Shown here: positions 1 to 26,519 of the stretch, in pieces | Position numbering within the stretch: the stretch's first letter is position 1 | How the letters are laid out: the number at the start of each line of letters is the position of its first letter | Origin: Macrostomum lignano | Taxonomy: Eukaryota | Assembly: GCA_002269645.1 (NCBI GenBank) | Contig: NIVC01000048.1 | Coordinates: 62,001-126,000 of the forward strand | Length of the DNA stretch: 64,000 nt | Direction: 5' to 3' | The notes under the pieces: model-generated | What the model was told of the DNA's origin: nothing | Databases searched by the model: none | The model's input: only the letters and a program-made list of their open reading frames with translations | Program-made: the position numbers and the translations under genes

Positions 1-240
1 ATGGAGAAGCCGCTCTCGATGCCGTCGAGAATAAAATCAGCGTCGGGGTCGCCAACAAGCTCGGAGCGCCAGGCGTCGATGCAGAGATCGCCCACTGGCT
101 GCGTCAGATCGGACATCCGCACTGGAGGCTTGACGATGCAGGGCACGGGAGCGGGCTGAGCGAGGCAGTTAAAAGCAGGAGGGGTAAAATCGGTTTCGCG
201 CGCCGTGTCGGCGCGCTTGCTCAGTTTTTTGCGTGATTTT
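1..240 (-). CDS. N-terminus of YR-retrotransposon pol (RT) ORF, partial
   Basis: Manual translation ...VRMSDLTQPVGDLCIDAWRSELVGDPDADFILDGIESGFS runs off the window. It matches the W...L..xPD..F.L.GI..GF pre-RT motif of DIRS/Ngaro elements and overlaps the end of gag. Confidence 0.7.
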
Positions 241-1235
241 GCTCGGAGTGGCTGCCCTCACAGATTCGGCAGGCATGGAGGAATCGGCAGTTGCTCCTCA
301 TGCAGCCGTTGGTGCTGTTGAAGGACAAGCACAGCTCGCGGCCTGAGGATGTCCGCGGACCCATGACGCGGCTCTTGTTGCTAGGCTGGTTTCGCTTGGC
401 TGTCTGGTTGTACTGGTCCGTCTTAATGCTGAGCAGGTGCCTGATCGACATCTGGGCGCAGTCTTTGCCCCAGCGAAGGCTGTTGGCTGCGCGGTGCTGG
501 CGGTAGTCATGGTCGAATCTGATCACCCGGTGCGCTGGGAATCTGTCGAATAGCTCGGCCACCTGGACATTGTACTGGGCGTAATCTTTGACTTGCTCAG
601 TTGTGCTGTACACTTGGCCCTTGCTGGTCACCTGCGGCGCTGTGTCTTCAAGTATCTGAAGCAGGACCTTCATACTGCCGGCGAACCACTGCCCAATTGT
701 CATGCCGTCCAGCTTGGTCGTCGACTTTTTGAGCACGAGGCCGCCAGAGCTGCCCCTGGTGAGCAGCTCATCAGCCTGGCCTGACAGATCATCGACAAAG
801 TCTCTGACGAGTAGACACGGCTGCCCGACCGGCCGGGGTTGGCTCTAGCGGTGACGGGGCCTGTTGGGTTGATAAGTTCAGCGAAAAGATTTTGCTGCTC
901 ACCTGATTCTGTACGAGCAGTCACGACGGCGCGTTCCCGAAGCTCTCGCTCGCGTGTTTGAAGCTCTAGGAGCTGCAGCCGTTTCTGCGCCCGCCGAATC
1001 TCGCCGTCCAGGTCCGCCTCCCGTGGTCCCGGCCTTGGTCTTGGAGCTCCTCCTGCGCACAGGGCGATGCCGATGCCGATGTCAATGCCGATGTCCCGCC
1101 GTCTTGAAGCTGTGACTGCCCCTCGTGTTGTCTCAGTCTGGCTTGCAAGGCCGACTTATTGCCTGCGGTTGAGAGGCCTCGGCTACCCAGCTCACTCTTG
1201 AGTTGTTTGACTGTTAGTCGGTCTACACGATGCAT
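221..1235 (-). pseudogene. Gag-like ORF1 with N-terminal SAP domain and C-terminal zinc finger, frameshifted
   Basis: 966-1235 gives LTVKQLKSELGSRGLSTAGNKSALQARL (SAP motif). A coiled-coil (LDGEIRRAQKRLQLLELQTRERELRER) lies in a second frame. The 221-736 frame extends upstream to ~845 and ends CLSFNSTNGCMRSNCRFLHACRICEGSH. Confidence 0.7.
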
Positions 1236-1496
1236 GATAGCCAGAGCCAGAAAGTCGCAAAGAAAATTTTACGAGCCAAAAAAATTTTACGAGCCAAAGC
1301 GCTCTCGCAGCGCGCACGAGAGAGCGTGAACGCACAAATAAAAGGGGGCCGACGCAACCCACCCCCAACCCAACACCCCCGCCTGCCGGCCGGCACCCAG
1401 CACCCCACCTTGCGGCAGGGATGCACACGCGCGGGCCGCACGCACAGACGGGCGGAGGGGGCGGCCCCGTCGGCTAAACACGATTACAGAGCCGGT

Positions 1497-1846
1497 TAAA
1501 ACCGGCCCCTGAAATCGCAACCAAACAAGACACTGTCGAACTTAAGTCATCTCATAGAACAGACACCTCAAACTACCCTAAGCTTCCAGGAGTTGAATCA
1601 CCATACATACTGACAAACTCTGAGCTTCTACGCTTTTTATATCTACCTGGAGAGCTAGAGAAGGACACTAAAAGAAGAGCTACAGATCCATACTTCAGCC
1701 TTGATGTACATAAAATAGACAGACATTTTACCTCCGACTCTGGTGACTATTACTTTTTATCTCAGGCCTTTAACCCTAAATCCCCCACGCGGTCATTCAC
1801 TAGAGCTGAACTCCTAGTGATACCAGCTGACACGGAAATTAATTAA
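1497..1846 (+). pseudogene. Polinton retroviral-like integrase, C-terminal fragment (two +1 homopolymer frameshifts)
   Basis: Manual translation KPAPEIATKQDTVEL...LRFLYLPGELEKDTKRRATDPYFSLDVHKI...DYYFLSQAFNPKSPTRSFTRAELLVIPADTEIN*. This matches the YLYxPGELE..RRATDP / YYL...P.R.F.R.ELLV tail I recognise from Polinton integrases. It is absent from the ORF track. Confidence 0.8.
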
Positions 1847-1862
1847 AATATTAAAACAAAAA

Positions 1863-2309
1863 ATGACAAAGATAGAAACCAGAACCATCAGTAAACTCAA
1901 TAAAATCATTGAATCAAAGAAACCAGGTCTTATATCAATTAAAGGTATCAAAGTTAAGTTTGATCCCACACAGCAAATAGTTGAGTGTAATGAACAAAGA
2001 CACAGCATCACAGATGAAAAGTCAGGAGGAATCCTACCATTAGCAGCTCTTATTCCGATCATTGCAGGCGCTGTAAGTGCCGCAGGTGGTGTAGCTGGAG
2101 GTGTAGCAACTGCTGTTAAAGCTGGTAATGATAGAGCACACCAGCTTGAATTGCAAAAGATTGCAAGAGATAAAGGTATAACAATTAAGGCAGGAGATGG
2201 TTGCCCCGATCGTGATGATTGTGAGCATGAAAATTCTGTAAGCAAGTCTGACATTGTCAAAGCCATCATGACACTGCACAATGCTGGGTTTACAATAATG
2301 CGCATGTGA
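1863..2309 (+). CDS. Putative virion core/membrane-active protein with adenovirus pX (mu)-like segment
   Basis: 148 aa; GGILPLAALIPIIAGAVSAAGGVAGGVATAV resembles the adenovirus pX C-terminal GGILPLLIPLIAAAIGAVPGIA segment. A-run precedes the ATG. Confidence 0.7.
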   Translation: MTKIETRTISKLNKIIESKKPGLISIKGIKVKFDPTQQIVECNEQRHSITDEKSGGILPLAALIPIIAGAVSAAGGVAGGVATAVKAGNDRAHQLELQKIARDKGITIKAGDGCPDRDDCEHENSVSKSDIVKAIMTLHNAGFTIMRM

Positions 2310-2432: not shown

Positions 2433-4171
2433 ATGCCAAAAGCCAATCCAGCAAAAGATTTAGTCAACAAATATTTTTCAAAAGGCGTCTCATTTCAAGA
2501 CAAAAGTAATTTACTAAGAGAAGCATGTAAACAAAAGTTTAACACCGACCCTGGTCACCTGGGAAGCTATGAAAAACAGTTGGAAATCATCAATCAATTA
2601 GAATCCAACCAGTATGCGCCTATAAAAAATCCTGCAAAGGAACACCAAGAGAGGAGTCGCAACTTAGTTAACAAATACGAAACTGTCACTGGTGAAAAAG
2701 CAAAGTACCCACAGAATAAGCAGGAACAAGAGAAATTAGAGCAATTAATCCATTTAAAAGAGTCGGAGCTTGCCATTGAAGAGATTAATTTTGCACAGAG
2801 GAAGTTTACAGAACATTACGTAGAGTACACAATCCAAATTAAGGATACCACCGCAAACATCTTCGACTATAAAGACAGCATCCAATCAGTTGTTGATCAC
2901 ACACTCAAAACACGCAAGACCTTTAAACTACAGATATCATTCAAGATTGCGTTTTATATGCCTGCAAAACCCACTGAGCATCTCGAGTATTACATGACAA
3001 CAAAGGCGAAGCCATTCACCCCTACAGACACACTAGATCCTTTCCTTCAAGATGTCACTAAGAAAATTGAAGCGTTTACATCCAGAGGTTCCGGATGGGT
3101 CGTGGGAGGGATTCAAAGAGCAACTGTCATGGTCATGAAATATGACCCACTTAAAGCCTCCTCTTATATAGAGCTCCCGCATAAGCTTGCCGGTAAAAAA
3201 GCTTGCATAAATGTTAAAAATAAAGACAATTGCTGTGCTCTATGGGCAGTTCTTTCTGCACTTCTTCATGATAGTGCCCTTCACCACCCTGAAAGAACCT
3301 CAAATTATCAAAATTATTTCAACTACTATCTCATTGAATGCGAAAAGAAGGGAATCAGGTTTGACAAAGGAGGCTTGGCGATCTCTCAGATCCCAAAGCT
3401 AGAAGAAGTGTTTAATAACAAAATTAGAATCACAGTCTTTGAATGGAGTGAAAAAACTGAGAAAGTTCAACCGGTCAGATGTAGCAAAGACGTTTTAGAT
3501 CCTGAGGGGAAAAGGCGGATTGAAGTGGATCTTCTAGTGATTGGTAATTTACTAGAGGAGGCTCACTATGTTTGGATTAAAGATCTTTCAAGACTCATTC
3601 ACAAGCAGTTGAATAATCATCACGAGGCTGTTGCCATCTGCCGCTTGTGCCTTAAACATTACAGTGGACCTGAACGCTTTGAAAAACTAGCAGAGCATGA
3701 ATTATCATGCGAGGATCACCCAACAAACTGCTCTCTTCCTTCAGCTGAAGAGAAGTATCTCCGGTTTAAGAACTATCATAAGATGGAGAAGCTCCCATTT
3801 GTTGTATATGCTGATTTCGAATGCTCAATCATGCCGGAAACACAAAAACAAACTCCAACTCAAAAACATATCCCTAATTCAGTAGCATATGCCTTTATTA
3901 ATACAGAAGGACTTGTTGAGTATAATTATTTCTTTGGAGAGCAGTGTGTGGAGCAGTTTATTGCCAGAATGTTAGAGTTGCAAAAAGTGATTAGCACCCT
4001 TCAACCTGTTCCAATAATGATGACTGAGGAGGATGAAAGCAATTTCCTATCAGCAACTCATTGTCACATCTGCAGGAAACAGTTAACTAGCACTAATATT
4101 AAAAACCCCACCGTTAGGGACCACTGCCACTTTACTGGGAAATTTAGAGGTGCAGCGCATAACACCTGTAA
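2433..4171 (+). CDS. polB: Protein-primed DNA polymerase B, 5' part (terminal-protein/vOTU-like region, ExoI, EndoVII-like insert); interrupted
   Basis: Motifs GSGWV, SSYIELP, INVKNKDNCCALW, HYVWIKD, FVVYADFEC, CHIC...VRDHCHFTGKFRGAAHNTCN. The frame is broken at 4171 by the Helitron stack. Confidence 0.92.
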
Positions 4172-6661
4172 TCCTATATACTAAAAATGAAATGTGTGTC
4201 TCTGTGAGATAGATTTCAGAAAAAACGGCTAAGCCGATTTTTTCAAACTTGCACCATTCGATCAGAAATTTTCCTGGGACGGTACATGCATCTTGGCTAA
4301 GAAATCGCTGAATGTAAAAGGGATTAAATATTCGAAAAACATGCTTTTTTGCAAAGGTCAAGCCAAATTTTTGACTTGAAATGCATTGTAAGAATGCTAG
4401 AGAAAAAACTAACTGACTGAATTTCAATTCTAATAAAGATTGCATCACAACAAGTTGAAAACAGTGCCGAAGAAATGCACACACGACATGATTGAAATTG
4501 CGTAACCATATTGCTAACTTAAATTGAGACTGATACTGGCTGACTGAGAAATTGATTGTGTCATAACTTTTTACTCTAACTGACTTGCTGAAAGTTTTGA
4601 ATTATAAGGGCGAGAGTTCATGTTCTCCGATTGAAACGAGATAGCCTAGATGCGAACAGACTGGACTGCTATTGTAGTGACCTGGGTTCGAATCTTAGTA
4701 GCGCAAAATGATTTTTTTATTAAAACACCTTAAAAGCACATAATGCTAAATATAAAAGGAGCGCAATGTCAAACATAAAAGAGCCACCATGTCAGATATA
4801 ATAGAGCCACCATGTCAAACGTTAAAGAGCCTCCATGTCGAACATTAAAGAGCTACCATGTCAAACATAAAAGAGCCACCATGTCAGATTTAATAGAGCC
4901 ACCATGTCAAACGTTAAAGAGCCTCCATGTCGAACATTAAAGAGCTACCATGTCAAACATTAAAGAGCCACCATGTCGAACATTAAAGAGCCACCATGCC
5001 AAACATAAAAGAGCCACCATGTCGAACATTAAAGAGCTACCATGCCAAACATAAAAGAGCCACCATGTCAAACGTTAAAGAGCCTCCATGTCAAACATTA
5101 AAGAGCTACCATGTCAAACATTAAAGACCTACCATGTCAAACATAAAAAAGGGCCATCATGCCAAACATAAAAGAGCCACCATGTCGATCATAAAAGAGC
5201 CACCATGTCGAACATATAAGAGCCACCATATCAAACATAAAAAAGCTACCATGTCAAACATAAAAGAGCCACCATGCCAAACATAAAAGAGCCACCATGT
5301 CGAACATTAAAGAGCCACCATGTCGAACATTAAAGAACCACCATGTCAAACATTAAAGACCTACCATGTCAAACATAAAAGAGCCACCATGTCGAACATT
5401 AAAGAGCCACCATGTCGAACATTAAAGAGCCACCATGTCAAACATAGAAGAGCCACCATGTAAAACATATAGGTGACTCCATGTCAAACATTAAAGAGCC
5501 ACCATGTCAAACATTCAAGAGCCACCATGTCAAACGTTAAAAAGCCACCATGTCAAACATTAAAGAGCCACCATGTAAAAATATAGGTGACTCCACGTCA
5601 AACATTAAAGAGCCACCATGCCAAACATTCAAGAGCCACCATGCCAAACATAAAGACCTACCACGTCGAACATAAAAGAGCCACCATGTCAAACATAAAG
5701 GAGGCATCATGTCAAAAATTAAAGAGCCACCATGTCGAACATTAGAGAGCCACCATGCCAAACATAAAAGAGCCACCATGTCGAACATAAAAGAGCCATT
5801 ATGCCAAACATAAAAGAGCCACCATGTCAGATATAATAGAGCCACCATGTCAAACGTTAAAGAGCCTCCATGTCGAACATTAAAGAGCTACCATGTCAAA
5901 CATAAAAGAGCCACCATGTCAGATATAATAGAGCCACCATGTCAAACGTTAAAGAGCCTCCATGTCGAACATTAAAGAGCTACCATGTCAAACATAGAAG
6001 AGCCACCATGTAAAACATATAGGTGACTCCATGTCAAACATTAAAGAGCCACCATGTCAAACATTCAAGAGCCACCATGTCAAACGTTAAAAAGCCACCA
6101 TGTCAAACATTAAAGAGCCACCATGTAAAACATATAGGTGACTCCACGTCAAACATTAAAGAGCCACCATGTCAAACATTCAAGAGCCACCATGTCAAAC
6201 GTTAAAGAGCCACCATGTCGAAAATTAAAGAGCCAACATGCCAAACATTCAAGAGCCACCATGCCAAACATTAAAGACCTACCACGTCGAACATAAAAGA
6301 GCCACCATGCCAAACATAAAAGAGCCACCATGTCGAACATTAAAGAACCACCATGTCGAACATTAAAGAGCCACCATATCGAACATTAAAGAGCCACCAA
6401 GTCAAACATAAAAGAGCTACCATGTAAAACATTCAAGAGCCACAATGTCAAACATAAAGGAGGCATCATGTCAAAAATTAAAGAGCAACCATGTCAAACA
6501 TTAAAGAGCCACCATGTCGAACATTAGAGAGCCACCATGCCAAACATAAAAGAGCCACCATGTCGAACATAAAAGAGCCCTATTTGTTATTTGTCTATTT
6601 GTTATTTGTGAAGAACAAGGATTCTATCCAGATGTCCCCCATCGGGGGCGAAGATTGCTAG
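4172..6661 (+). mobile_element. Non-autonomous Helitron unit 1 (subfamily A)
   Basis: 5' TCCTATATACTAAAAATG; 3' CCCCCATCGGGGG hairpin + CGAAGATTGCTAG; carries the 23-bp satellite A. Confidence 0.88.
4765..6578 (+). repeat. 23-bp minisatellite A (AAAGAGCCACCATGTCAAACATT)
   Basis: Directly visible tandem units of period 23 with variant units. Confidence 0.95.
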
Positions 6662-7284
6662 TCCTATATACTAAAAATGGTCTGTCTGTGTCTATCTATC
6701 TATCTATCTATGTGATCGATTAGAGAAAAAATGGCTGGACCGATTTTGTTCGAACTTGCACTGTTCGATCAGAAATTTTCCCGTGACGGTACATGCATCG
6801 TGGCTAAGAAATTGCTCGATGCTAAAGGCATTAAATATTCGAAAAACATGCTTTTTTGCAAAGGTCAAGCAAACTTTTCGACTTAAAATGCATTGTAAGA
6901 ATGCTAGAGAAAAAACTTACTGGTTGAATTCTGATTCTGAAATAGATTGCATCATAACTGAATTGTAACTCCGACTTGAATTGGAAATGCAGTGTGAAAG
7001 CGTAGCACCAGACTTGATTTAAATTGCGTAACCATATTGTTAACTGATACCGACTGACTGAAAAACTGATTATGTCATAACTGCTTCGTGTGATTTACTC
7101 TATGCTTGGATTTTAAAGTGTTGAATTATATAAGTGCAAAAGTTGATGTTATCAAAACGATGAGAGCTAGCCTAGAGGTGAACAAACTGAACTGCTAAAT
7201 GCAGCGACGATGGTTTGAATTTTCATAGAGTATAATTTTTTAATTAAATCTTTTCAACGTCAGGAAAACTAAAAGACTTTTTAA

Positions 7285-9355
7285 AAAGAAGCGTCATGTA
7301 AAAATCGTAGAAGCGTCATGTAAAAAATCATAGAAGCGTCATGTAAACAATCATAGAAGTGTCATGTAAAAAATCATAGAAGCGTCATGTAAACAATCAT
7401 AGAAGCGCCATGTAAAAAATCATAGAAGCGTCATGTAAACAATCATAGAAGCGTCATGTAAACAATCATAGAAGCGTCATGTAAAAAATCATAGAAGCGT
7501 CATGTAAACAATCATAGAAGCGTCATGTAAACAATCATAGAAGCGTCATGTAAAAAATCATAGAAGCGTCATGTAAACAATCATAGAAGCGCCATGTAAA
7601 CAATCATAGAAGCGTCATTTAAAAAATCATAGAAGCGTCATGTAAACAATCATAGAAGCGTCATGTAAAAAATCATAGAAGCGTCATGTAAACAATCATA
7701 GAAGCGTCATGTAAACAATCATAGAAGCGTCATGTAAACAATCATAGAAGCGTCATGTAAACAATCATAGAAGCGTCATGTAAACAATCATAGAAGCGCC
7801 ATGTAAAAAATCATAGAAGCGTCATGTAAACAATCATAGAAGCGTCATGTAAACAATCATAGAAGCGTCATGTAAAAAATCATAGAAGCGTCATGTAAAC
7901 AATCATAGAAGCGCCATGTAAACAATCATAGAAGCGTCATGTAAACAATCATAGAAGCGTCATGTAAAAAATCATAGAAGCGTCATGTAAACAATCATAG
8001 AAGCGTCATGTAAACAATCATAGAAGCGTCATGTAAACAATCATAGAAGCGTCATTTAAACAATCATAGAAGCGTCATGTAAAAAATCGTAGCAGCGTCA
8101 TGAAAAAATCATAGAAGCGTCATTTAAAAAATCATAGAAGCGTCATGTAAACAATCATAGAAGCGCCATGTAAACAATCATAGAAGCGTCATTTAAAAAA
8201 TCATAGAAGCGTCATGTAAACAATCATAGAAGCGTCATGTAAAAAATCATAGAAGCGTCATGTAAACAATCATAGAAGCGTCATGTAAACAATCATAGAA
8301 GCGTCATGTAAACAATCATAGAAGCGTCATGTAAAAAATCATAGAAGCGTCATGTAAACAATCATAGAAGCGTCATGTAAACAATCATAGAAGCGCCATG
8401 TAAACAATCAAAGAAGCGTCATTTAAACAATCATAGAAGCGTCATTAAAAAAATCGTAGCAGCGTCATGAAAAAATCATAGAAGCGTCATTTAAAAAATC
8501 ATAGAAGCGTCATGTAAACAATCATAGAAGCGCCATGTAAACAATCATAGAAGCGTCATGTAAAAAATCATAGAAGCGTCATGTAAACAATCATAGAAGC
8601 GTCATGTAAAAAATCATAGAAGCGTCATGTAAACAATCATAGAAGCGTCATGTAAACAATCATAGAAGCGTCATGTAAAAATCATAGAAGCGTCATGTAA
8701 ACAATCATAGAAGCGCCATGTAAACAATCATAGAAGCGTCATTTAAAAAATCATAGAAGCGTCATGTAAACAATCATAGAAGCGTCATGTAAACAATCAT
8801 AGAAGCGTCATGTAAACAATCATAGAAGCGTCATGTAAACAATCATAGAAGCGCCATGTAAACAATCATAGAAGCGTCATGTAAACAATCATAGAAGCGT
8901 CATGTAAAAAATCATAGAAGCGTCATGTAAAAAATCATAGAAGCGTCATGTAAACAATCATAGAAGCGTCATGTAAACAATCATAGAAGCGTAATTTAAA
9001 AAATCATAGAAGCGTCATGTAAAAAATCATAGAAGCGCTATGTAAACAATCATAGAAGCGTCATGTAAACAATCATAGAAGCGTCATGTAAACAATCATA
9101 GAAGCGTCATGTAAACAATCATAGAAGCGTCATTTAAAAAATCATAGAAGCGTCATGAAAAAATCATAGAAGCGTCATGTAAACAATCATAGAAGCGTCA
9201 TGTAAACAATCATAGAAGCGTCATGTAAACAATCATAGAAGCGTCATGTAAACAATCATAGAAGCGTCATTTAAAAAATCATAGAAGCGTCATGAAAAAA
9301 TCATAGAAGCGTCATGTAAACAATCATAGAAGCGTCATGTGAAAAATCATCGAAG
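7285..9355 (+). repeat. 23-bp minisatellite B (AATCATAGAAGCGTCATGTAAAC)
   Basis: Highly homogeneous tandem array of period 23. Confidence 0.95.
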
Positions 9356-9797
9356 TCTCATTTAAAAAGTAATGAAAGTGTCATTTAAAATATTAAGAAG
9401 CATCATGGTAGAATAAAAGAAGCGTCATGTCAGACATGAAGGGTGTCATGTAAAAATTAAATGAAGCTATAATGCTGTGCTGGGGAGAATTACTGAGATG
9501 TCAAGGCTCTCAGAGAATAACTTAGATTACGGGGGGGGGGGTTTCTGAGATGTCAAAGCAATAGTCAGAGGCTATTTCAAAGTTCATGTACTTTACTCAA
9601 TTTTTGATTGCATTCTTTGTTGGCTCGCCACGGGGGGCGCTGATAAAAAGCGTAATGTAAAAAATAAAAGAAGCTTCATGTCGAAGTTAAGAGATTCATT
9701 TGGGAATCCCTACGATGTCGAGGCTTGCAGGGAATCACTATAATGCTGTAGTAGTGCTATAATGACTCTCAGAGAGAATTACTGAAATTTCAATGCT

Positions 9798-9858
9798 TTA
9801 GGGTTAGGTTAGGGTTAGGGTTAGGCTAGGGTTAGGGTTAGGCTAGGGTTAGGGTTAG
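9798..9858 (+). repeat. Interstitial telomere-like (TTAGGG)n tract
   Basis: TTAGGG/CTAGGG/TTAGG units. Confidence 0.85.
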
Positions 9859-10721
9859 AAGGTTGACAGATATTTTTAGATTTCCAAGGCTTATTGGGGG
9901 CATTGCTGAGATGTCAATGGGGGAAGTTGATATGTTAAAGCTTGTGGGGGGGAGTTATTGACATGTCAAGGCTTACAAGGTTTGACAGGAGATTTTTTAA
10001 GATTTCAAGGAAATATGTACATGTAGCTTATTAAAAAACGTGTATTGCATTTCTTTGGCTCCCCAACGGGGGGCGTGGATTGCTAGTAAACATACTATAA
10101 TCCTATATCCTTAAAATTCCCATATACTAAAAATGAAAATCTTGCTTGCTTGTAATCGATTAGAGAAAACATGGCTTAACCAATTTTCATGAGACTTGCA
10201 CTGTTCGATCAGAAATTTTCCCGTGACGGTACATGTGTCTTGGCTAAGAATTTGCTCGATGCTAAAGGCATTAAATACTCGAAAAACATGCTTTTTTGCA
10301 AAGGTCAAGCAAACTTTTCAACTTGAAATGCATTGTAAGAATGCTAGAGAAAAAACTGACTGGTTGAATTCTGATTCTGAAATGGATTACATCATAACTG
10401 AATTGTAACTCCAACTTGAATTGCGTCACAGTATTGAAAATGCAGTGTGGAAGCGTAGCACCAGACTTGATTTAGATTGCGTAACCATATTCTCAACTTT
10501 AATTGAGACTGATACTGACTTGCCTGGGAAATTGATTATGTCATAACTGCTTCGTGTGTGAGTGTTTAATTATATAAGTGCTACAATTTCATTTATAAAT
10601 TCGATAATAGCTAGCCTATATGTGAACAGACTGGACTGCAAATGCAGCGACCTGGGTTTGAATCTTAGTAGTGAAAAGTTTTTTATTAAAAGCTTTTATT
10701 AAAGGAAAAATAAAGGACAAA

Positions 10722-11395
10722 AGGCGTCATGTAAAAAAGCATAGAAGCGTCATGTAAAAAAGCATAGAAGCGTCATGTAAAAAATCATAGAAGCGTCATG
10801 TAAAAAATCATAGAAGCGTCATTTAAAAAAATCATAGAAGCGTCATGTAAACAATCATAGAAGCGTCATGTAAAAAGCATAGAAGCGTCATATAAAAAAT
10901 AATAGAAGCGTCATGTAAAAAATCATAGAAGCGTCATGTAAAAATCATAGAAGCGTCATGTAAAAATCATAGAAGCGTCATGTAAAAAATCATATAAGCG
11001 TCATGTAAACAATCATAGAAGCGTCATGTAAAAAGCATAGAAGCGTCATGTAAAAAGCATAGAAGTGTCATTTAAAAAATCATAGAAGCGTCATGTAAAA
11101 AATCATAGAAGCGTCATGTAAACAATCATAGAAGCGTCATGTAAAAAATCACTGAAGCGTCATGTAAACCATCATAGAAGCGTAATGTAAAAAATCATAG
11201 AAGCGTCATCTAAAAATCATAGAAGTGTCATGTAAACAATCATAGAAGCGTCATTTAAAAAAATCATAGAAGCGTCATGTAAACCATCATAGAAGTGTCA
11301 TGTAAACAATCATAGAAGCGTCATGTAAACAATCATAGAAGCGTCATGTAAACAATCATCGAAGCGTCATCTAAAAGTCATAGAAGCGTCATTAA
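10722..11395 (+). repeat. 23-bp minisatellite B, shorter array
   Basis: Same unit as 7285-9355. Confidence 0.93.
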
Positions 11396-12296
11396 AAACT
11401 AATGAAAGTGTCATTAAAAAAATTAAGAAGCATCATGGTAGAATAAAAGAAGCGTCATGTCAGACATGAAAGGTGTCATGTAAAAATTAAATGAAGCTAT
11501 AGTGCTGGGCTAGGGAGAAAAACTGAGACGTCAAGGCTCACAGAGAATAACTGAGATTACGGGGTTGGGGTTTCTGAGATGTCAAAGCAAAAGTCAGAAG
11601 CTACTTCAAAGTTCATGTACTTTACTCAATTTTTATATTACATTCTTTGTTGGCTCGCCACAGGGGGGGGGCGCTGATAGAAGAAGAGTCATGTAAAAAA
11701 TAAAAGTAGCACTATGTATACATAAAAGAAGAGTCATGTCGAAGTTAAAAGATTCCTTTGGGAATTGCTACGATGTCAAAGCTTGGTGGAAATCGTTATA
11801 GTGCTGTGATTCTTAAAGAAGGAATCACTAAAATGTCAAGGCTTAGGGAAGAATAATTGCTGAGATTTTAAGACTTTAGGTTGGGTTAAAGTTAGGTTTA
11901 GGTCAGGTTTGGGTTGAGGGTTAGATTTTATCGGGTTTCAAGGTTAACGGGGGGGTTTTTAGATTTCAAAGTTTATTGAGGCCATCGCTGACATGTCAAG
12001 GCTTACGGGGGGAATAGCTGACATGTCAAGGCTCACGGGGGTATAAATGAGACTTTAAGGCTAAAGTCAGAAGCTACATGTAGTTTATTGAAAAATTTTT
12101 ATTACATTATTTGATGCCTCCTCAGGGGAGGGATCGCTGATAAAAAAAGCGTAATGTAAAAAATAAAAGAAGCTTCATGTCGAAGTGAAGAGATGCATTT
12201 GGGAATCCCTACGATGTCGAGGCTTTCAGGGAATCGCTATAATGCTGTAGTAGTACTATAATGACTCTTAGAGAGAATTACTGAAATGTAAATGCT

Positions 12297-12387
12297 TTAG
12301 GGTTATGTTAGGGTTAGGGCTAGGTTAGGTTAGGGCTAGGGGCTAGGGTTAGGGTTAGGGTTAGGGTTAGGCTAGGGTTAGGGTTAG
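12297..12387 (+). repeat. Interstitial telomere-like (TTAGGG)n tract
   Basis: TTAGGG/CTAGGG units; a degenerate copy lies at ~11878-11925. Confidence 0.85.
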
Positions 12388-12613
12388 AAGATTGACAGAT
12401 ATTTTTAGATTTCCAAGGCTTATTGGGGGCATTGCTGAGATGTCAAGGGGGGAAGTTGATATGTTAAAGCTTGTGGGGGGGGGAAATTACTGACATGTCA
12501 AGGCTTACAAGTTTTGACAGGAGATTTTTTAAGATTTCAAGGATACATGTAGCTTATTTAAAAAACGTGTATTGCATTTCTTTGGCTCCCCAACGGGGGG
12601 CGTAGATTGCTAG

Positions 12614-12963
12614 TCTAAATATACTAAATCTCTAATATTTGTTTGTATGCTTGAATGTCCATAACGCTCTAGAGATTGCAATTCTTCACCGATTTTCATC
12701 GCGTTTTCGCCAAAAGATTCAAAATTGTCTGGAAAGAAGACAGTTAAAATTTCTTGTATCTGCTTCAATGCTAAAGGGATTAAATATTCGAAAAACTGTT
12801 TTAAATGGCCTTTTTCAATGCAAATTTTATCAGCGAGAAACTTCACTGCCAATTTTAATTGATTGCGCCAGAGCCAACTGATAAGAAAACTCACTCCGCT
12901 CCACTTAAAGGGGGGCAATAAAAAAATTATTCTGGCTGCTGGCAGCCAGCTCTAATTAGCTAG
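12614..12963 (+). mobile_element. Short non-autonomous Helitron unit 4 (distinct family, 350 bp)
   Basis: Starts TCTAAATATAC; 3' perfect hairpin CTGGCTGC-TG-GCAGCCAG followed by ...AGCTAG. Confidence 0.8.
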
Positions 12964-15900
12964 TCCTATATACTAAAAATGAGTTGTCTGTATGTATGTA
13001 TGTATGTTTGTATATGGGTATGCGATAGATTTCAGAAAAAACGGCTCAACCGATTTTCTTCAAACTTGCACTATTCGATCAGAAATTTTCCTGGGACGGT
13101 ACATGCATCTTGGCTAAGAAATTGCTCAGTGTTAAAGGGATTAAATATTCGAAAAACATGCTTTTTTGCAAAGGTCAAGCAGCTCTTTCGACCTGAAATG
13201 CATTGTAAGAATGCTAGAGAAAAAACTGACTGACTGAATTCTGATTGTGATAAAGATTGCATCACAACAAGTTGAAAACAGTGCCGAAGAAATGCACACA
13301 CGACTTGATTTAAATTGCGTAACCAATATTGCTAACTCAAATTGAGACTGATACTGGCTGACTGAGAAATTGATTATGTCATAACTTTTTACTTCAATTG
13401 ACTTGCAGTAAGAATTGAATTATAAGGGCCACAATTCATGTTCTTCAATTGAAAAGAGATAGCCCTGATGCGAACAGACTGGAATGCTAATGTAGCGACC
13501 TGGGTTCGAATCTTAGTAGTGCAAAAAGATTTTTTTATCAAAACACCTTAAAAACACAACAAAACTGCTAAACTTAATAGAAGCGCAATGTCAAACATAG
13601 AAGAGCCACCATGTCGAACATTAAAGAGCCAACATTTCAAATATAAAAGAGTTACCATGCCAAACATAAAATAAGCACTATGTCAAATATATACGTGACT
13701 CCATGTCAACGATTAAAAAGCCACAATGTCAAACATTTAAGAGCCACCATGTCAAACATTTAAGAGCCACCATGTCTAACATTAAAGAGCCACCATGTCG
13801 AAAATTAAAGAGCCACCATGTCCAACATATATGTGACTTCATGTCAAACATTCAAGAGCCACTATGTCAAAACATAAAAGTGCCATCATGTCAAACCTAA
13901 AAGAGCCACCATGTCAAACATAAAAGAGCCACCATTTCGAAAATTAAAGAGCCACTTTGTCTAACATTAAAGAGCCACCATGTCAAACATAAAAGAGCCA
14001 CCATGTCAAACATAAAAGAGCCACCATGTCAAACAATAAAAAGCCACTTTGTCTAACATTAAAGAGCCACCATGTCAAACATAGAAGAGCCACCATGTCA
14101 GACATTGAAAAGCCACCGTATCAAACATAAAAGAGCCACCATGTCAACATAAAAGAGCCACCATGTCAAACATAAAGATACACAATTTCAAACGTAAAAG
14201 TAAGCGAATTTTAAAGGAGCCACTACAATGCTAAGGAAATTGTCGCACTAGCTACTTATTGTCTGGTGGATGCTTGCTATTTGGGGATGCTATCTATCTG
14301 GGGGATGCTTGCTCTCTGGAAGATGCTTGCTATCTGGGGGATGCTTGCTATTTGGGGGAAGCTTGCTATCTTGGGGATGCTTGCTTTCTGGGGGACGCTT
14401 GCTATCTGGGGGATGCTTGCTATCTGGGGGATGCTTGCTATCTGGGGGAAGCTTGCTATCTGGGGGATGCTTGCTATCTGGGGGATACTTGCTATCTAGG
14501 GGATGCTTGCTATCCGGGGGATGCTTGCAATCTGGGGGATGCTTGCTATCTGGGGGATGCTTGCTGTCTTAAGATGATTTCTTTTTGCATTGCACTTCAT
14601 TTAAGTATTTTGTCTGTTTTCTTTGTGATTGTGAATGCTTTATTTTGCTATCTTTTTGTCTAACCATGTCTAACATTAAAGAGCCACCATGTCGAAAATT
14701 AAAGAGCCACCATGTCCAACATATATGTGACTTCATGTCGACCATTAAAGAGCCACCATGTCTAACATTAAAGAGCCACCATGTCGAACATTAAAGAGCC
14801 ACCATGTCTAACATTAAAGAGCCACTATGTCGAACATTAAAGAGCCACCATGTCGAACATTAAAGAGCCAATATGTCCAACGTATATGTGACTTCATGTC
14901 AAACATTAAAGAGCCACCATGTCTAACATTAAAGAGCCATAATGTCAAACAATAAAGAGCCATCGTGTCGAACATTAAAGAGCCACCATGTCGAACATTA
15001 AAGAGCCACCATGTCGACCAGTAAAGAGCCACCATGTCAAACATTAAAGAGCCACCTTGTCTAACATTAAAGAGCCACCATGTCGAAAATTAAAGAGCCA
15101 CCATGTCCAACATATATGTGACTTCATGTCAAACATTAAAGAGCCATCGTGTCGAACATTAAAGAGCCACCATGTCTAACATTAAAGAGCCACAATTTCA
15201 AACATTAAAGAGCCATCATGTCGAACATTAAAGAGCCACCATGTCTAACATTAAAGAGCCACCATGTCGAACATTAAAGAGCCACCATGTCGAACATTAA
15301 AGAGCCACCATGTCTAACATAAAAGAGCCACCATGTCGAAAATTAAAGAGCCACCATGTCCAACATATATGTGACTTCATGTCAAACATTAAAGAGCCAC
15401 CATGTCTAACATTAAAGAGCCACCATGTCTAACATTAAAGAGCCACAATTTCAAACATTAAAGAGCCATCATGTCGAACATTAAAGAGCCACCATGTCTA
15501 ACATTAAAGAGCCACCATGTCTAACATTAAAGAGCCACCATGTCGAAAATTAAAGAGCCACCATGTCCAACATATATGTGACTTCATGTCAAACATTAAA
15601 GAGCCACCATGTCTAACATTAAAGAGCCACCATGTCTAACATTAAAGAGCCACAATTTCAAACATTAAAGAGCCATCATGTCGAACATTAAAGAGCCACC
15701 ATGTCTAACATTAAAGAGCCACCATGTCGAACATTAAAGAGCCACCATGTCGAACATTAAAGAGCCACCATGTCAAACATAAAAGAGCCACCATTTCTAA
15801 CATTAAAGAGCCACCATGTATAAAATTAAAGAGCCACCATGTCGAACATTAAAGAGCCACCATGTCGAACATTAAAGAGCCACCATGTCCAACATATTTG

Positions 15901-17253
15901 TGACTTAATGTCAAACATTAAAGAGCCACCATGTCTAACATTAAAGAGCCACCATGTCGAACATTAAAGAGCCACCATGTCCAACATATATGTGACTTCA
16001 TGTCAAACATTAAAGAGCCATCATGTCGAACATAAAAGAGCCACCGTGTCTAACATAAAAGGACCACCATGTCAAACATTAAAGAGGCACCATGTCAAAA
16101 ATTAACAGCCACCATGTCTAAGATTAAAGAGCCACCATGTCGAACATTATAGAGCCACCATGTCGAATAATAAAGAGCCACCATGTCGAACATTAAAGAG
16201 CCACCATGTCGAACATAAAAGAGCCAGCATGTCAAACATAAAAGGACCACCATGTCAAACAATTAAGAGGCACCATGTCGAACATTAAAAAGCCACCATG
16301 TCGAACATTAAAGAGCCACCATGTCTAACATTAAACAGCCACCATGTCTAACATTAAAGAGCCACCATGTCGAACATTAAAGAGCCACCATGTCTAACAT
16401 TATAGAGCCACCATGTCGAATATCAAAGAGCCACCACGTCAAACATTAAAGAGCCACCATGTCAAATATTAAAGAGCCACCATTTCAAACATTAAAAAGC
16501 CATCATTACAGACATTAAGGTGCCACCAGGTCAAACATTAAAGAGCCACCATGTCTAACATTAACCAGTCACCATGTCAAGTATATTCGTGACTCCATGT
16601 CAAACATCAAAGAGCCATCATGCCAAACATATAAGAGCCACCATGTCGAAAAAAAGCCACCACGTAGAACATTAAAGAGCCACCATGTCAAACATAAAAG
16701 AGCCAACATGTCAAACATTAAAGAGCCACCATGTCGAAGATTAAAGAGCCACCATGTCAAACATTAAAGAGCCACCATGTCAAATATTAAAGAGCCACCA
16801 TTTCAAACATTAAAGAGCCATCATTACATTAAGGTGCCACCAGGTCAAACATAAAAGAGCTGCCATGTAGAACATAAAAGAGCCACCATGTCAAACATAA
16901 AAGAGCCACCATAAAAGATACACAATTTCAAACGTAAAAGTAAGCATCATGCCAATTTTAAAGGAACCACTGTAGAGCTAAGGAAATTGTTGCACTAGCT
17001 ACTTATTGTCTGGGGGATGCTTGCTATCTGGGGGATGCTTGCTATCTGGGGGATGCTTGCTATCTGGGGGATGCTTGCTATCTGGGGGATGCTTGTTGTC
17101 TTGGGAAAATTTCTTTTTACATTACACTTTATTTGAGCAGTTTGTCTGTTGTCTTTGTGAAGGCTTTATTTGGCTGCATGTCTTTTTGTTACTTGTAGAG
17201 AACAGAGATTCTATCCAGATTTCCCCCAACGGGGGGGGGGCGAAGATTGCTAG
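12964..17253 (+). mobile_element. Non-autonomous Helitron unit 5 (subfamily A) with internally duplicated satellite module
   Basis: 5' ~600 bp homologous to unit 1; 23-bp A arrays at ~13585-14180 and ~14665-16910; 18-bp arrays at ~14260-14570 and ~17006-17100; 3' CCCCCAACGGGGGGGGGG + CGAAGATTGCTAG. Confidence 0.88.
14260..14570 (+). repeat. 18-bp minisatellite (GGGGGATGCTTGCTATCT)
   Basis: Tandem units; reverse complement of the unit forming the 52990-56020 array. Confidence 0.93.
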
Positions 17254-19349
17254 TTTAAAGCTAAAATCGAACATTCATGATCTAACAATATTTTGTCACA
17301 ACGCAAAGAACTATGACATGCATTTAATAGTTGAAAAAATCGGTATGATTCCAGACATACACCTTGACTGCATCGCAGAGAACAAGGAGAAGTTTAAGTG
17401 TGTTGATATTAAACAGGATAATTCGGGTACAGGTAAAATAAGACTGAAGGATTCATATCAATTTCTAGCTGCCAGTCTAGACGAACTAAGCAAGAATCTA
17501 AAAGATGAACAATGTACATATACAAAGATGTTTGCAAGTAAAATTTACAACAGTGATGAATCATTTAAACTCCTGAGAACCAAAGGCTTCTACCCCTATG
17601 AAAATATTACTGGGTATTACGGATTTGAAGAAGGTTTACCACCACAGGAGAAGTTCTTTTCAAAGCTAACAGACTCTGGAATCTCTGACAAAGACTATGA
17701 GCACGCGAAGCATGTCTATAATTACTTTAATTGTCAAAACTTCTTCCAGTATCACCTGCTTTACCTCTTCACAGATGTGTTTCTGCTGGCCGATGTGTTT
17801 GAAACCTTCAGATATACCTGGTACACAGCATATGGCCTCGATCCAGAACATTATGTGTCTCTGCCTGCCACTAGCTGGGAATCTTTGCTTAAAATGAAAG
17901 GGGATCAAGATCCAGATTGGTACATTGAACTTCTTACAGACATTGACATGTACAATTTTGTCGAATCGTCAAAGCGAGGGGGAATCTCAATTTGCGTTAA
18001 CAGGTATGCAAAAGCAAACAATCCCTACATTGAATCTTACAATAAGGAGCAGCCCTCAAACTACATTACTTACTTGGACGCTAATAATCTCTACGGGTGG
18101 GCGATGAGTCAAGATCTTCCAGTTAGAGATTTTCGATGGCTACCTTCATCAGAATTTAAATGGGACTTTTCATTGGCTGCCATTTATGAGGTTGATGTTT
18201 ACATTCCACCAGAGCTTCACGACTATTTCTCTGACTTTCCACCCTTCCCAGAGAACATCAAGTGCCCGAAAATAATCGAAACTCCCAATAGAACTTGGCA
18301 CCTGTCAGGAACAGAAAAAGAACATACAGAGAAACTAACACAGAATCTAAACAACAAGACACGTTACAAAATCCATTACAAACTGCTTCAGTATTTTATC
18401 TCACTTGGTTGTAGGGTCACCAAAGTTCACAGGGCTCTTACATTTACAGAGGAAGCGTGGATGAAACCCTACGTTGATAAGAATACCCAGTTTAGGACCA
18501 AAGCAACCAACGACTTTGACAAGAACCTCTTTAAGTTGGCCAACAACTCTGTCTATGGCAAGACTCTTGAGAATGAGAGGAAAAGAACAAACCTGAAACT
18601 TGTTACCTCATCAGAGCCTGCTGTTATTCAGGCAAATATGTCAAAACCAACATTCAAAGAACTCCATATCTTTAATAGCTACCTAGGTGTGATCATATTT
18701 TTACAAAACCAAGGTGACGCTGCGCAAGCCGATCTATACAGGTGTCACTGTACTCGACGAATCAAAACGTCTGATGTACCAATTCTTCTATGGCATGAAG
18801 CAGCAGTACAAGGATAAAATGAAACTCTTGTACACTGACACAGACAGTTTTATTATGGACATTCAAACAGAAGACATTTATCAGGACATGCTGCAGCAAA
18901 AAGATTTGTTTGACTTGTCTGAGTATGATGAATCTTTCAGGACACAGAATGGCGATCAAGTGTTTGACGCCACTAACAAGAAAGTGATTGGGAAAATGAA
19001 GGACGAGATTGCTGGTGACATAATCACTGAATTCATTGGGTTGAGAGCAAAGTCCTATTTTGTAAAATGTGAGTCGTCAGACCCAATTAAAAAATCAAAG
19101 GGAATTCTTAAACGCGTGGTTAGGAAGGAAATTAATGAAGTTGAATACAGAGACGCCTTGAATTGCAACAAAAAGACATCACATGAGTTCTCAAAGCTAC
19201 AATCTAAAAACCATATTATTCACACAATTCAGCAAAAGAAGATTGGACTGTCAGGTGCAGATAACAAGAGATTCATTTTTGATGACAATATTAACAGTCT
19301 ACCGTTCGGGCACTGGAGATTGGGTTTAGGAGGTGGAAGTTGGGTTTAG
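17254..19349 (+). CDS. polB: Protein-primed DNA polymerase B, 3' part (ExoII/III and polymerase domain); +1 frameshift at ~18700
   Basis: HNAKNYDMH, YLFTDVFLLADVFE, motif A YLDANNLYGWAM, motif B KLANNSVYGK, motif C LYTDTDS, KVIGKMKDE. An extra T in the T5 run at 18698-18702 shifts GVIIF to YKTKVTLRKPIY. Confidence 0.93.
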
Positions 19350-19402: not shown

Positions 19403-19803
19403 ATGACAACAAATAACTTTCTTGGAGATTTGGCTAACGAACTGGAAATCCCAAACTTTAGAGGAATATTTATGAGGGACACTCTGCCTGATTTTCCTCT
19501 AAGAAAAGAATGTGGCATCATGAACTTTGACACCACTGATAAGCCAGGATCTCATTGGGTTTGCTGGGTGATTGATCCCGATCGCAAGCACAAGTGTTAT
19601 TACTTCGATAGCTATGGGACGGCAGTACCAGAAGAGCTAATAAATTATATGAAGGGAAAAATAATAAAAACATTTACCACTCAGACTTTATTCTTCAAGG
19701 TCTTAGCAGTGATATTTGCGGTGAGCTGTGCATGACTGTTTTGTATGCAATGACCAAAACACGAAAGACCTACAAGGAAATTATTCTTGGCTGTGTTTCA
19801 TAG
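19403..19803 (+). CDS. Adenain-like cysteine protease (-1 frameshift at A run ~19657-19661)
   Basis: GSHWVCW (catalytic His) and YYFDSYG; after the frameshift NIYHSDFILQGLSSDICGELC (Gln and catalytic Cys); stop at 19801-19803. Confidence 0.9.
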
Positions 19804-23917: not shown

Positions 23918-23948
23918 TTCTTATTTTATTTTAATTTTTAGTTAAAAA

Positions 23949-25235
23949 ATGAACGACCCACTGACACCAGTTTTCTACAAAATTAACAAGCCTATTTTGA
24001 GTGATGATAGCACAATCAAAGCGACTCAGGTAAGAGTTCCCAGTCAGGAAAATCAGAATGAAACTAATCTTGGTCCTGGTCAAACACTGACATTTACATA
24101 CAATGGATGTTCGTCTTTGGTTAGTGTGCACAGTCTTAAGAGCGGATTCCATATGACATTTCAATTCAAGACAAAGGGTGGTGCGGATGCGGCTCGTGCT
24201 AACGTTGACAAGCATGATGCGGATGTGGCTCTGATCAGTAAATTTTGGGCGTACATGTTCAAGGAGTTTAGTGTATCGAATGGGAGCACAGAGTTGGAGC
24301 GAATCGCCAACTTTGGAATTGTCTATGACGCTCATTGTTTGATCGAGAATTCTGATTTTATTCAGTTGGGAAGTGGTGCGGGTTTTATTGCAGACGAAAA
24401 AGAAGGAGATATCAATGACAGTGGCTATAAAAATAGGAAGAAGAGATACAACTGTGCATTGCAAGGTGCAGATGATGCTGCTAAGAACCCGCTGTATCGG
24501 TCTGTTGATGTATTTGTACCATTGAGATTCATGAGTGGATTCTGTAATACATTTAATCGACTGACTAGTAACTTTAGCTACACATTTAGGATGACTAGAG
24601 TTGATCGCAGTAGAGTGTTGTGGACTGGGGCGGACCACACTGGGATGGAGGTGAAGCTAACCGGAATCGAGCTGTATTTGGAAGTCATTGAGCCAAAGAC
24701 TGCACTAAAAGCTGATTATCTCAAGGCAATAGAGAAGGACATTGATGTTGCATACACGGCCTACATGTGTCGAGATGAGCGAAACGAAACTAGAACAAAC
24801 ATCTGCATTAAAGAGGGATCATGCAGCAATCCAAGGTATATTATTATTAACATGAGAAACCCAAATAGCATTATACGCTACATGCATGGAGACGTGCGGT
24901 CCATTCAGCATGAAATCAGTGATAATCTTTACCCTGCACTGCCACAAAATGGAGATTTCAGTCAGAACAAGATTAGCAAATTTTACAACGAGTTGGTCGA
25001 CTTGGCTGTGAAAGAGAACAATGGAATTGCTATCACTGCTCTTCAATATGGAACTCTATATCCGATGTTTGGCGCTGATGTGTCTGCCAGACAAATGCCT
25101 ACTGATAACAGCCCTGTGAATATCGTGAATAACATTGAGAGGACTGCCGCAACACCTGTGGACTTGTACATTATCTATGCATTTGAGAGGAAGGTGAAGC
25201 TTAACATGATCAACAATTCATCCAGTAAAGTTTAA
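23949..25235 (+). CDS. Major capsid protein (double jelly-roll, PY)
   Basis: 428 aa, intact, directly upstream of the penton. N-terminal ILSDDST...P...N.G...TFT and C-terminal YPMFGADVS...LYIIYAFERK fit Polinton MCP patterns; beta-rich composition. Confidence 0.82.
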   Translation: MNDPLTPVFYKINKPILSDDSTIKATQVRVPSQENQNETNLGPGQTLTFTYNGCSSLVSVHSLKSGFHMTFQFKTKGGADAARANVDKHDADVALISKFWAYMFKEFSVSNGSTELERIANFGIVYDAHCLIENSDFIQLGSGAGFIADEKEGDINDSGYKNRKKRYNCALQGADDAAKNPLYRSVDVFVPLRFMSGFCNTFNRLTSNFSYTFRMTRVDRSRVLWTGADHTGMEVKLTGIELYLEVIEPKTALKADYLKAIEKDIDVAYTAYMCRDERNETRTNICIKEGSCSNPRYIIINMRNPNSIIRYMHGDVRSIQHEISDNLYPALPQNGDFSQNKISKFYNELVDLAVKENNGIAITALQYGTLYPMFGADVSARQMPTDNSPVNIVNNIERTAATPVDLYIIYAFERKVKLNMINNSSSKV

Positions 25236-25256
25236 ATATTTTTTTAGGACAAAAAA

Positions 25257-26124: not shown

Positions 26125-26361
26125 TCACAATTGCTTAATGATTTCTGCAAAGTTATAGTAGCTGTCGTAATCGTTAATGACTACTCCATACTTATGAAAC
26201 CAGTGTCTTTGGAGAGCTAGATTAATATTAGGGACATTGATATCAACGTCGGGCCAATATTTTCTCATGTACTCGCTGCATTCAAGTTTGCATCGGTACT
26301 TGGATTTGTACAATGGATTAGGCTGAGTATAATAAGAACCTGGAGAGACAACTGGAAACAT
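26125..26361 (-). CDS. Small Polinton hypothetical protein (78 aa)
   Basis: A-run then ATG (MFPVVSPG...); converges on the penton stop. Confidence 0.5.
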   Translation of the reverse strand: MFPVVSPGSYYTQPNPLYKSKYRCKLECSEYMRKYWPDVDINVPNINLALQRHWFHKYGVVINDYDSYYNFAEIIKQL

Positions 26362-26519
26362 TTTTTTATTGAGAATTTTATTTTTTTTCAAAGGGTAAGG
26401 ACCCTGCGCTGATAATTTAAAGTCTTAGGGATTTGGTTTCATGTTGCGGATTGAATGTGGGGAGAAGAATTCAGATTATTTTCTGATTGTTTCGAAGATG
26501 CTATGGGTGGATTTCGAGC

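What the first reader, a model, noticed from the sequence alone, without database searches (positions are those of the whole stretch)
4167..17260. A 13-kb Helitron stack splits viral polB at a single A|T; clean excision restores the gene
Left flank TGTAA|TCC and right flank CTAG|TTTAAAG rejoin as TGT AAT TTA AAG CTA (C-N-L-K-L), in frame and with no gain or loss. The inserted DNA is longer than the remaining viral genome. Stacked satellite-rich elements could inactivate and heterochromatinise an endogenous virus. Whether Polintons are preferred targets is open.
Basis: seen in the sequence. Interest (0 to 1): 0.78.

Follow-up and report, generated by a model that had tools for sequence, protein, structure and literature searches.

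The report
Helitrons stacking on their own ends
Five different rolling-circle jumping elements (Helitrons) sit nose-to-tail, 13 kb in all, inside the polymerase gene of an integrated DNA virus; genome-wide this family lands at a short DNA motif and about a third of the time exactly at the start of another Helitron, so the pile likely grew by the elements reusing their own left end as a target rather than by aiming at the virus.

Summary
Real, but the interesting part is not the virus. The insert is 4172-17253 (13,082 bp): five different non-autonomous Helitrons joined CTAG|T head to tail, at an A|T site that is empty, with no gain or loss, in 39 of 39 sibling Polinton copies. Two claims fail. 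The provirus extends left of the window and holds about 15.8 kb of viral DNA, more than the insert. polB has a second, independent frame break, and the integrase and protease are broken too. Stacking is a family trait: 284 of 927 exact 3' ends abut base 1 of another Helitron (0.1-0.2% expected), as do 28 of 30 ends of a 350-bp subfamily. Host targets carry an extended motif, A|T-N5-7-CTA(A/T), in 39 of 59 flanks, resembling the element's own left end; the polB site fits it. Best reading: RepHel uses resident left ends as targets, so stacks grow by sequential insertion (order inferred, not shown). No sign of Polinton targeting. Tandem Helitrons and self-insertion are in print; the motif and these rates I did not find. 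The scan earlier noted this family's telomere-like cargo elsewhere in the genome, not the stacking.

The parts
4172..6661 (+). Unit E1: non-autonomous Helitron, subfamily A (23-bp satellite at 4766-6579)
   Evidence: TC start, hairpin + CTAG end; ends 87-88% like the autonomous element
6662..10086 (+). Unit E2: non-autonomous Helitron, subfamily B (other 23-bp satellite, TTAGGG-like tract at 9798-9858)
   Evidence: joined CTAG|TCC to E1
10087..10117 (+). Two short left-end-like stubs (about 14 and 17 bp) in front of E3
   Evidence: this junction has no close match among 40 scored of 1,644 candidates
10118..12613 (+). Unit E3: non-autonomous Helitron, subfamily B, 86-91% like E2
12614..12963 (+). 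Unit E4: 350-bp mini-Helitron; its subfamily nearly always ends on another Helitron's left end
12964..17253 (+). Unit E5: non-autonomous Helitron, subfamily A (23-bp and 18-bp satellites); its 3' end abuts the viral T
   Evidence: first 28 bp identical, next 259 bp 96%, last 160 bp 91% like a 9.1-kb RepHel element
2433..4171 (+). 5' part of the Polinton polB frame, cut in an endonuclease-VII-like zinc motif
   Evidence: PF02945 E=0.0013, below cut-off
17254..19349 (+). 3' part of polB, with a second frame break near 18.7 kb; its first bases fit the family's target motif (T, six bases, CTAA)
   Evidence: PF03175 E=6e-16
19403..19800 (+). Adenain-like protease gene, frame broken near 19.66 kb
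   Evidence: PF00770 E=0.004, below cut-off
1821..2309 (+). pX (mu)-like virion core protein gene
   Evidence: PF05829 E=5e-7
23946..26120 (+). Probable major and minor capsid genes
   Evidence: Atlas neighbours include double-jelly-roll clusters, recognition score weak; the minor capsid label is from gene order and recall
26328..26828 (.). Right terminal inverted repeat of the Polinton, followed by the 6-bp target duplication at 26829-26834
1..1522 (-). In-window part of a roughly 3-kb retroelement (gag-like CCHC frame; RT/RNase H just left of the window) that splits the Polinton integrase
   Evidence: 32-bp duplication starting at 1523

Best explanation
Five different non-autonomous Helitrons lie head to tail in a Polinton polB gene at a site that is empty in sibling copies, and they likely arrived one after another because this family's RepHel transposase is inferred to treat its own left end as a preferred target. 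Shown: host targets read A|T-N5-7-CTA(A/T); the element's left end reads T-N7-9-CTAAA; about a third of 3' ends abut base 1 of another Helitron; 9-10 kb RepHel-coding copies with the same ends exist and stack too. Inferred: a first element (likely E5) hit a motif site that happens to lie in polB. RepHel nicks resident left ends just before their first T, as it does to start copying; the freed 3'-OH takes up an incoming element, whose CTAG is then sealed to that T. Each round recreates the target, so stacks grow at left ends, and early termination leaves 5'-anchored stubs. The virus is a bystander that was also hit by a retroelement.
For: 769 of 927 are followed by T-N5-8-CTA, against 14 for the TCA control; without the 284, 485 of 643 (75%) against a 4.7% background. 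In the 90 fetched of the first 100 listed places: 29 left-end joins of 17 different types and 59 unique host flanks, all starting with T, 39 with CTA at +7 to +9 against 3-6 in five control windows. The base after CTA is A 24, T 13, C 2, G 0, which argues against pairing with the element's own GCTAG end. 350-bp subfamily: 28 of the first 30 of 179 ends run into a left end. 27 of 138 left ends of that type are preceded by a 17-200 nt left-end prefix; only 4 of 26 such stubs end in CTAG, and 9 of 17 informative stubs are a different variant from the unit behind them, so neither an upstream 3' end nor local duplication is needed. Helraiser is cut in vitro between flank and 5'-TC, and its targets are most AT-rich on the 3' side (PMC4778049, passages).
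Against: Spacing does not match fully: host CTA starts at +7 to +9 (0 of 59 at +10), while the main left ends have it at +10 or +11, so the motif alone does not explain the joins. Direction of growth was not shown: an apparent age gradient along arrays proved to be internal homology of a longer element. Junction counts can be inflated when ready-made stacks are copied by end bypass, and array members are not independent (the 30 mini-element ends lie on 9 contigs). 8 of 17 stubs match the unit behind them. Reported de novo insertions of bat and wheat Helitrons show AT preference without such a motif in the passages read (PMC4778049, PMC13286980). No biochemical test was possible.
Confidence: 0.6

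Rival explanations
1. The stack, or most of it, was built elsewhere and entered polB in one event, copied from E1's left end through to E5's right end by bypassing the inner stop hairpins.
For: End bypass is an established Helitron behaviour (PMC4778049, PMC5148889, passages). Some mini-element arrays share the same tail and stubs between contigs (L330/L331).
Against: No second copy of the E2|E3 junction among 40 scored candidates and no near-identical copy of E3|E4|E5 (best 92-97%). It would need four bypasses over 13 kb, and it still needs a way to make the junctions.
Confidence: 0.14
2. New elements insert just after a resident 3' end (CTAG|T), because the hairpin-CTAG plus downstream motif mimics the circle junction; stacks grow rightward.
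For: 76 of 138 mini-element-type left ends and 15-18 of 30 main left ends follow a Helitron 3' end. The host motif stays in place after each insertion.
Against: Stub|left-end joins occur with no 3' end upstream (for example L222). The mini-element almost never ends on host DNA (2 of 30), whereas rightward growth would leave it there. It needs G|T targets.
Confidence: 0.1
3. Junctions come from rolling-circle concatemers, or from recombination of excised circles with resident copies.
For: Circles with head-to-tail junctions are demonstrated (PMC5876387, PMC13286980, passages), and plant tandem arrays are attributed to this (cited in PMC11934779). Runs of similar 350-bp units exist (L341).
Against: The five units differ (77-91% alike in shared parts). 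One 3' type joins 17 left-end types in 29 junctions. Tandem autonomous copies differ in length and 5' variant. It does not explain the host motif.
Confidence: 0.09
4. Helitrons prefer Polintons and act as a silencing or inactivating defence against them.
For: Three further Polinton copies carry insertions of this Helitron group among 282 loci fetched around Helitron ends.
Against: The sites all differ. 1 of 59 unselected flanks is viral (P=0.27); 0 ends in 0.41 Mb of siblings, about 1 expected; 39 of 39 siblings are empty here. The motif is no denser in the virus (33 in 12 kb) than in nearby host DNA (71 in 28 kb).
Confidence: 0.04
5. The stack is a misassembly of satellite-rich repeats.
For: No listed contig bridges the junctions; the units are satellite-rich.
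Against: Both outer junctions are base-exact against 39 siblings and fit the family's target motif; inner junctions are at exact element ends, as in hundreds of other places.
Confidence: 0.03

Closest known systems
Canonical Helitrons (HLE1), e.g. bat Helraiser, Xenopus Heli1Xen1, wheat Xuan-Feng (PMC4778049, PMC12001565, PMC13286980, PMC11417382; passages read)
   Same: 5'-TC with an AT-rich left end, hairpin + CTAG, A|T insertion without target duplication, RepHel partner, non-autonomous derivatives with minisatellite cargo.
   Different: An extended target motif (CTA[A/T] at +7 to +9) and about 30% base-exact joins to other Helitrons. In the passages read, those systems report only AT plus general AT-richness.
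Tandem Helitron arrays in plants and bats, attributed to rolling-circle concatemers (as cited in PMC5876387 and PMC11934779; the original plant paper was not seen)
   Same: Head-to-tail CTAG|TC junctions.
   Different: Units here are mostly different subfamilies, including autonomous with non-autonomous, which points to sequential insertion rather than one replication run.
Self-insertion and multiple 5' termini of Fusarium FoHeli elements (PMC5148889, passages)
   Same: Short duplicated 5' ends (under 200 bp), one element inserted 2 bp upstream of another's 5' end, self-insertion proposed.
   Different: A few cases in non-canonical elements. Here there are hundreds of base-exact joins in a canonical family, and a subfamily that almost always does it.
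Maize Helitrons inserting near other Helitrons (Yang and Bennetzen 2009, seen only as cited in PMC12477314; the paper was not held)
   Same: Clustering of Helitrons.
   Different: Proximity there, as cited; exact joining at base 1 here. Whether that paper reports a downstream motif I could not see.
Polinton / Alpha-type adintovirus (PMC8502044, passages)
   Same: pPolB (PF03175), rve integrase, PLA2-like and pX-like genes, protease, probable capsids, terminal inverted repeats.
   Different: This copy is disabled at several genes; PLA2-like and pX-like frames are separate here; the OTU domain of polB was not tested.

Membership tests
Canonical Helitron (HLE1) | 5' TC terminus | tested here: met
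   E1, E2, E4, E5 start TC; E3 starts TC after two stubs
Canonical Helitron (HLE1) | 3' CTRR after a short hairpin | tested here: met
   All five end in CTAG with a G/C stem shortly before it; the folding z-scores alone are weak, -0.2 to -1.75
Canonical Helitron (HLE1) | Insertion between A and T, no target duplication | tested here: met
   39 of 39 siblings empty with adjacent flanks; 59 of 59 host right flanks start with T
Canonical Helitron (HLE1) | Autonomous partner encoding RepHel with the same ends | tested here: met
   9.1-9.9 kb elements with PF14214 and PIF1 matches and matching ends; the coding region is in pieces (introns or breaks not resolved)
Canonical Helitron (HLE1) | HUH/Y2 catalytic motifs and placement in the HLE1 clade by tree | not tested
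   No motif check or tree was made
Canonical Helitron (HLE1) | Circular intermediates and current activity | not testable with these tools
   Needs eccDNA or de novo insertion data
Helentron / HLE2 (DINE-1-like) | Subterminal inverted repeats, T|T target | tested here: not met
   TC...CTAG ends; 9 of 12 left flanks not following a Helitron 3' end finish in A; self-comparison showed no inverted repeat in the units
Rolling-circle concatemer array | Units are near-identical copies of one element | tested here: not met
   Five different units
Polinton/Maverick | Terminal inverted repeats and 6-bp target duplication | tested here: met
   About 500-bp inverted repeats and the same 6 bp on both sides
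Polinton/Maverick | Protein-primed PolB and rve integrase | tested here: met
   PF03175; PF00665 E=3e-9 left of the window; both interrupted
Polinton/Maverick | Capsid proteins, packaging ATPase, protease | tested here: inconclusive
   Capsid: weak Atlas support; protease below Pfam cut-off; ATPase candidate 21489-22055 has no Pfam or PHROG hit and is labelled from recall

The most novel reading that the evidence does not exclude
A Helitron family whose transposase reads an extended target motif that mimics its own left end and uses resident left ends as integration hot spots. Mixed head-to-tail stacks would then grow by sequential, site-directed insertion, with a 350-bp subfamily living almost only on other Helitrons' left ends: an 'origin as target' rule that could explain Helitron tandem arrays without concatemers.
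Probability: 0.45. Interest if true: 0.72.

Novelty: new variant of a known kind. Interest (0 to 1): 0.55.

Why it matters
How Helitrons choose targets beyond 'AT', and how their tandem arrays form, are open points. This family gives a countable motif, hundreds of exact junctions, stubs from different donors and RepHel-coding partners, so both questions can be tested with oligonucleotides or allele comparisons. Self-targeting would also be a safe-haven strategy that piles satellite DNA at single base positions. The hit on the endogenous virus is useful mainly because dozens of empty sibling copies prove the target sequence and the absence of duplication.

Tried and rejected
1) Age gradient along arrays of the 350-bp unit (identity falling toward the 3' side): rejected as a test of direction, because the low-identity pieces are internal homology of a longer element with the same left end. 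2) Pairing between the element's GCTAG end and the target CTA: no G after CTA in 39 cases. 3) My early impression that no Helitron end lies in viral DNA was overturned by the wider check: three cases. 4) Mismatch counts for stubs came from a faulty alignment and are not used; redid the test on diagnostic sites. 5) Read laying: unitigs only, no listed bridge of the junctions. One contig in run X1 shows an empty site carrying the window's own right-flank variant, which may be an empty allele or another copy; not used as evidence. 6) Clustering the 282 loci into independent sites failed, as no places are stored with the files, so no P value is given for the three cases. 7) Literature: nine searches ran. 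None listed a paper on this family or on a CTA target motif; two relevant papers were not held, the plant tandem-array paper was seen only as a citation, and no supplements were read, so published logos may bear on novelty. 8) Earlier-findings look-ups by words and by sequence were empty.

Full report
The insertion. Viral sequence stops at A 4171, a Helitron 5' end starts at 4172, the last Helitron ends in hairpin + CTAG at 17253, and viral sequence resumes with T. Inner junctions at 6661|6662, 10086|10087, 12613|12614 and 12963|12964 divide the 13,082 bp into five units, E1-E5, all on the + strand. E1 and E5 share one 23-bp satellite, E2 and E3 another plus TTAGGG-like tracts, and E4 is a 350-bp unit. 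Shared parts are 77-91% alike, so the units are not copies of one another. The longest stop-free frame in the stack is 143 codons. A search with the left flank gave 261 candidates, 40 scored. In 19 of 19 loci tested directly, and in all 39 non-self hits by alignment coordinates, the two flanks are adjacent with nothing gained or lost.

The virus. The host element is a Polinton/adintovirus-type provirus: PF03175 polB, a pX-like gene and a weak protease match in the window, rve integrase and a PLA2-like gene left of it, and a probable capsid with weak support. Its right end is 26,828; its left end lies at L117:927, 5.1 kb before the window, with about 500-bp inverted repeats and a 6-bp duplication on both sides. 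Viral DNA adds up to about 15.8 kb, so the insert is not longer than the virus. The copy has further lesions: a roughly 3-kb gag/RT/RNase H retroelement in the integrase, a frame break in polB near 18.7 kb that 34 of 34 covering siblings lack, and a broken protease frame. Since only 2 of 36 siblings are stop-free over 680 codons after the site, small indels are common in these copies and may partly be assembly noise. The claim that the stack is the only lesion in the gene is not supported by the assembled sequence.

The Helitron family. PF14214 hits (150 scored of 301 candidates) include 9.1-9.9 kb elements with the same ends and PIF1 helicase matches; three lie in tandem on C853 and differ in length and 5' variant. 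These are the likely source of transposase.

Stacking is general. 284 of the 927 3' ends are joined directly to TCCN{0,1}ATATACTAAA. In 90 fetched of the first 100 listed places, 29 were such joins, to 17 different left-end types. Of the first 30 exact left ends, 15 follow a CTAG end directly and 3 more follow a slightly altered or stub-padded one. For the 350-bp subfamily, 28 of the first 30 of 179 ends run into a left end, directly or after short stubs; these lie on 9 contigs, include the window's own unit and are not independent.

An extended target motif. 769 of 927 ends are followed by T-N5-8-CTA and 14 by the control T-N5-8-TCA; backgrounds from 28 kb of nearby DNA are 4.7% and 7.3%. Among 59 unique host flanks (2 duplicates dropped; one or two may be variant left ends) all begin with T and 39 have CTA at +7 to +9, against 3-6 in five windows further out; the next base is A or T in 37 of 39. 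The polB site fits: T, six bases, CTAA. The empty siblings prove that this motif is target DNA, not part of the element. The left ends themselves read T...CTAAA with CTA at +9 to +11: similar, but shifted. The motif alone predicts 0.1-0.2% of insertions at left ends; 31% are seen, so left ends are favoured more than a hundredfold beyond it.

Stubs. 27 of 138 left ends of the 350-bp type are preceded by a 17-200 nt prefix of a left end, and many more by 3-6 nt prefixes. Only 4 of 26 long stubs end in CTAG. In 9 of 17 informative pairs the stub is a different variant from the unit behind it, in 8 the same. Chains of stubs also follow host A with no 3' end upstream (L222). This fits repeated, often abortive, insertion just in front of base 1 of a resident left end, by donors from elsewhere. 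The two stubs before E3 are of this kind, and that junction has no close match among 40 scored candidates.

Mechanism. Shown: ends, target dinucleotide, motif, junction rates, mixed units, partner elements. From the literature (passages only): Helraiser is cut between flank and 5'-TC, needs the left end more than the right, makes circles, truncates or bypasses its 3' end, and prefers AT-rich DNA on the 3' side of the target (PMC4778049, PMC5876387). Inferred: donor and target are both cut before a T, so one binding site could read both; host sites are weak mimics of the left end, and real left ends, nicked as origins, are strong targets. Each insertion recreates the target. The order in this window (E5 first) is an inference; my test of direction by age failed. 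Whole-stack transfer by end bypass, insertion after 3' ends, and circle-derived tandems remain as rivals and may contribute.

Is the virus targeted? One of 59 unselected flanks is in this Polinton family (L257; P=0.27 at a share of at most 0.54%, estimated from 261 candidates). None of four Helitron-end probes matched in about 0.41 Mb of sibling viral DNA, where about one left end is expected. Among 282 loci fetched around Helitron ends, three lie in Polinton copies, each at a different site. The motif is about as dense in the virus as in host DNA. There is no sign of targeting; a modest excess is not excluded. Chromatin effects were not testable.

Comparison and novelty. The units are canonical Helitrons by ends, target and partner (criteria as in PMC11417382, passages); catalytic motifs were not checked. 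Tandem Helitrons (cited in PMC5876387, PMC11934779, PMC12001565), insertion near other Helitrons (cited in PMC12477314) and self-insertion with multiple 5' ends (PMC5148889) are in print; for each I read search-term passages only. De novo wheat insertions are described as preferring AT (PMC13286980, passages). Nine searches listed nothing on a CTA motif or on base-exact left-end targeting at this rate; subscription papers, two unheld papers and all supplements were not seen. PMC10288648, PMC4588551 and PMC8502044 were read as passages for context. Verdict: a real insertion in an ordinary, multiply disabled Polinton; the notable feature is a Helitron family with an extended, left-end-like target motif and strong self-stacking. 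New variant of a known kind, interest 0.55.

Noticed in passing
L117:4542-6000 and window 1-1522: A roughly 3-kb retroelement with DIRS/Ngaro-like gag, RT and RNase H frames (family label recalled) sits in the Polinton integrase, flanked by a 32-bp duplication; no tyrosine recombinase was seen.
   Followed up: partly
window 9798-9858 and 12297-12387: TTAGGG-like tracts inside units E2 and E3, near their 3' ends.
   Followed up: no
L183 (G000:C40:95636-104728) and eight similar loci: The autonomous Helitron carries a weak OTU-like frame upstream of RepHel (E=0.008) and an internal left-end-like sequence on the opposite strand about 1.4-1.7 kb before its 3' end.
   Followed up: partly
L334 (G000:C1316:36001-46000): Nested series: a Polinton hit by a mini-Helitron stack plus a longer Helitron, which is itself interrupted by a second Polinton.
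   Followed up: partly
L081-L116: Sibling Polintons are mosaics: the ATPase region or the capsid region drops to 77-83% identity in some copies while polB stays at 96-98%, suggesting module exchange between two lineages.
   Followed up: no
L101 (G000:C975:126963-136962): Two polB segments face each other in an inverted arrangement, with much of the virus missing; rearrangement or misassembly.
   Followed up: no
L107 and L096: Other sibling copies carry unrelated insertions of about 7.7 kb (in polB) and 1.7 kb.
   Followed up: no
window 52996-56005, 62094-62612, 47627-47794: Arrays related to the stack's 18-bp and 23-bp repeats lie outside the virus on the opposite strand, without the family's end motifs in my scan.
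   Followed up: partly
window 44240-45019, 50726-51955, 60236-61036 (minus strand): Three paralogous secreted-protein frames that look like C-type lectins (label recalled, not tested), 80-85% alike at the DNA level.
   Followed up: no
window 28250-28651 and 29698-30099: An exact 402-bp direct repeat 1.45 kb apart, LTR-like.
   Followed up: no
window 31782-35320 (minus strand): Long frames with ankyrin-like repeats and transmembrane segments, resembling a TRP-type channel (recalled, not tested).
   Followed up: no
L194 (G000:C99, near 565,050): Two Helitrons 16 bp apart, the spacer itself fitting the target motif.
   Followed up: no
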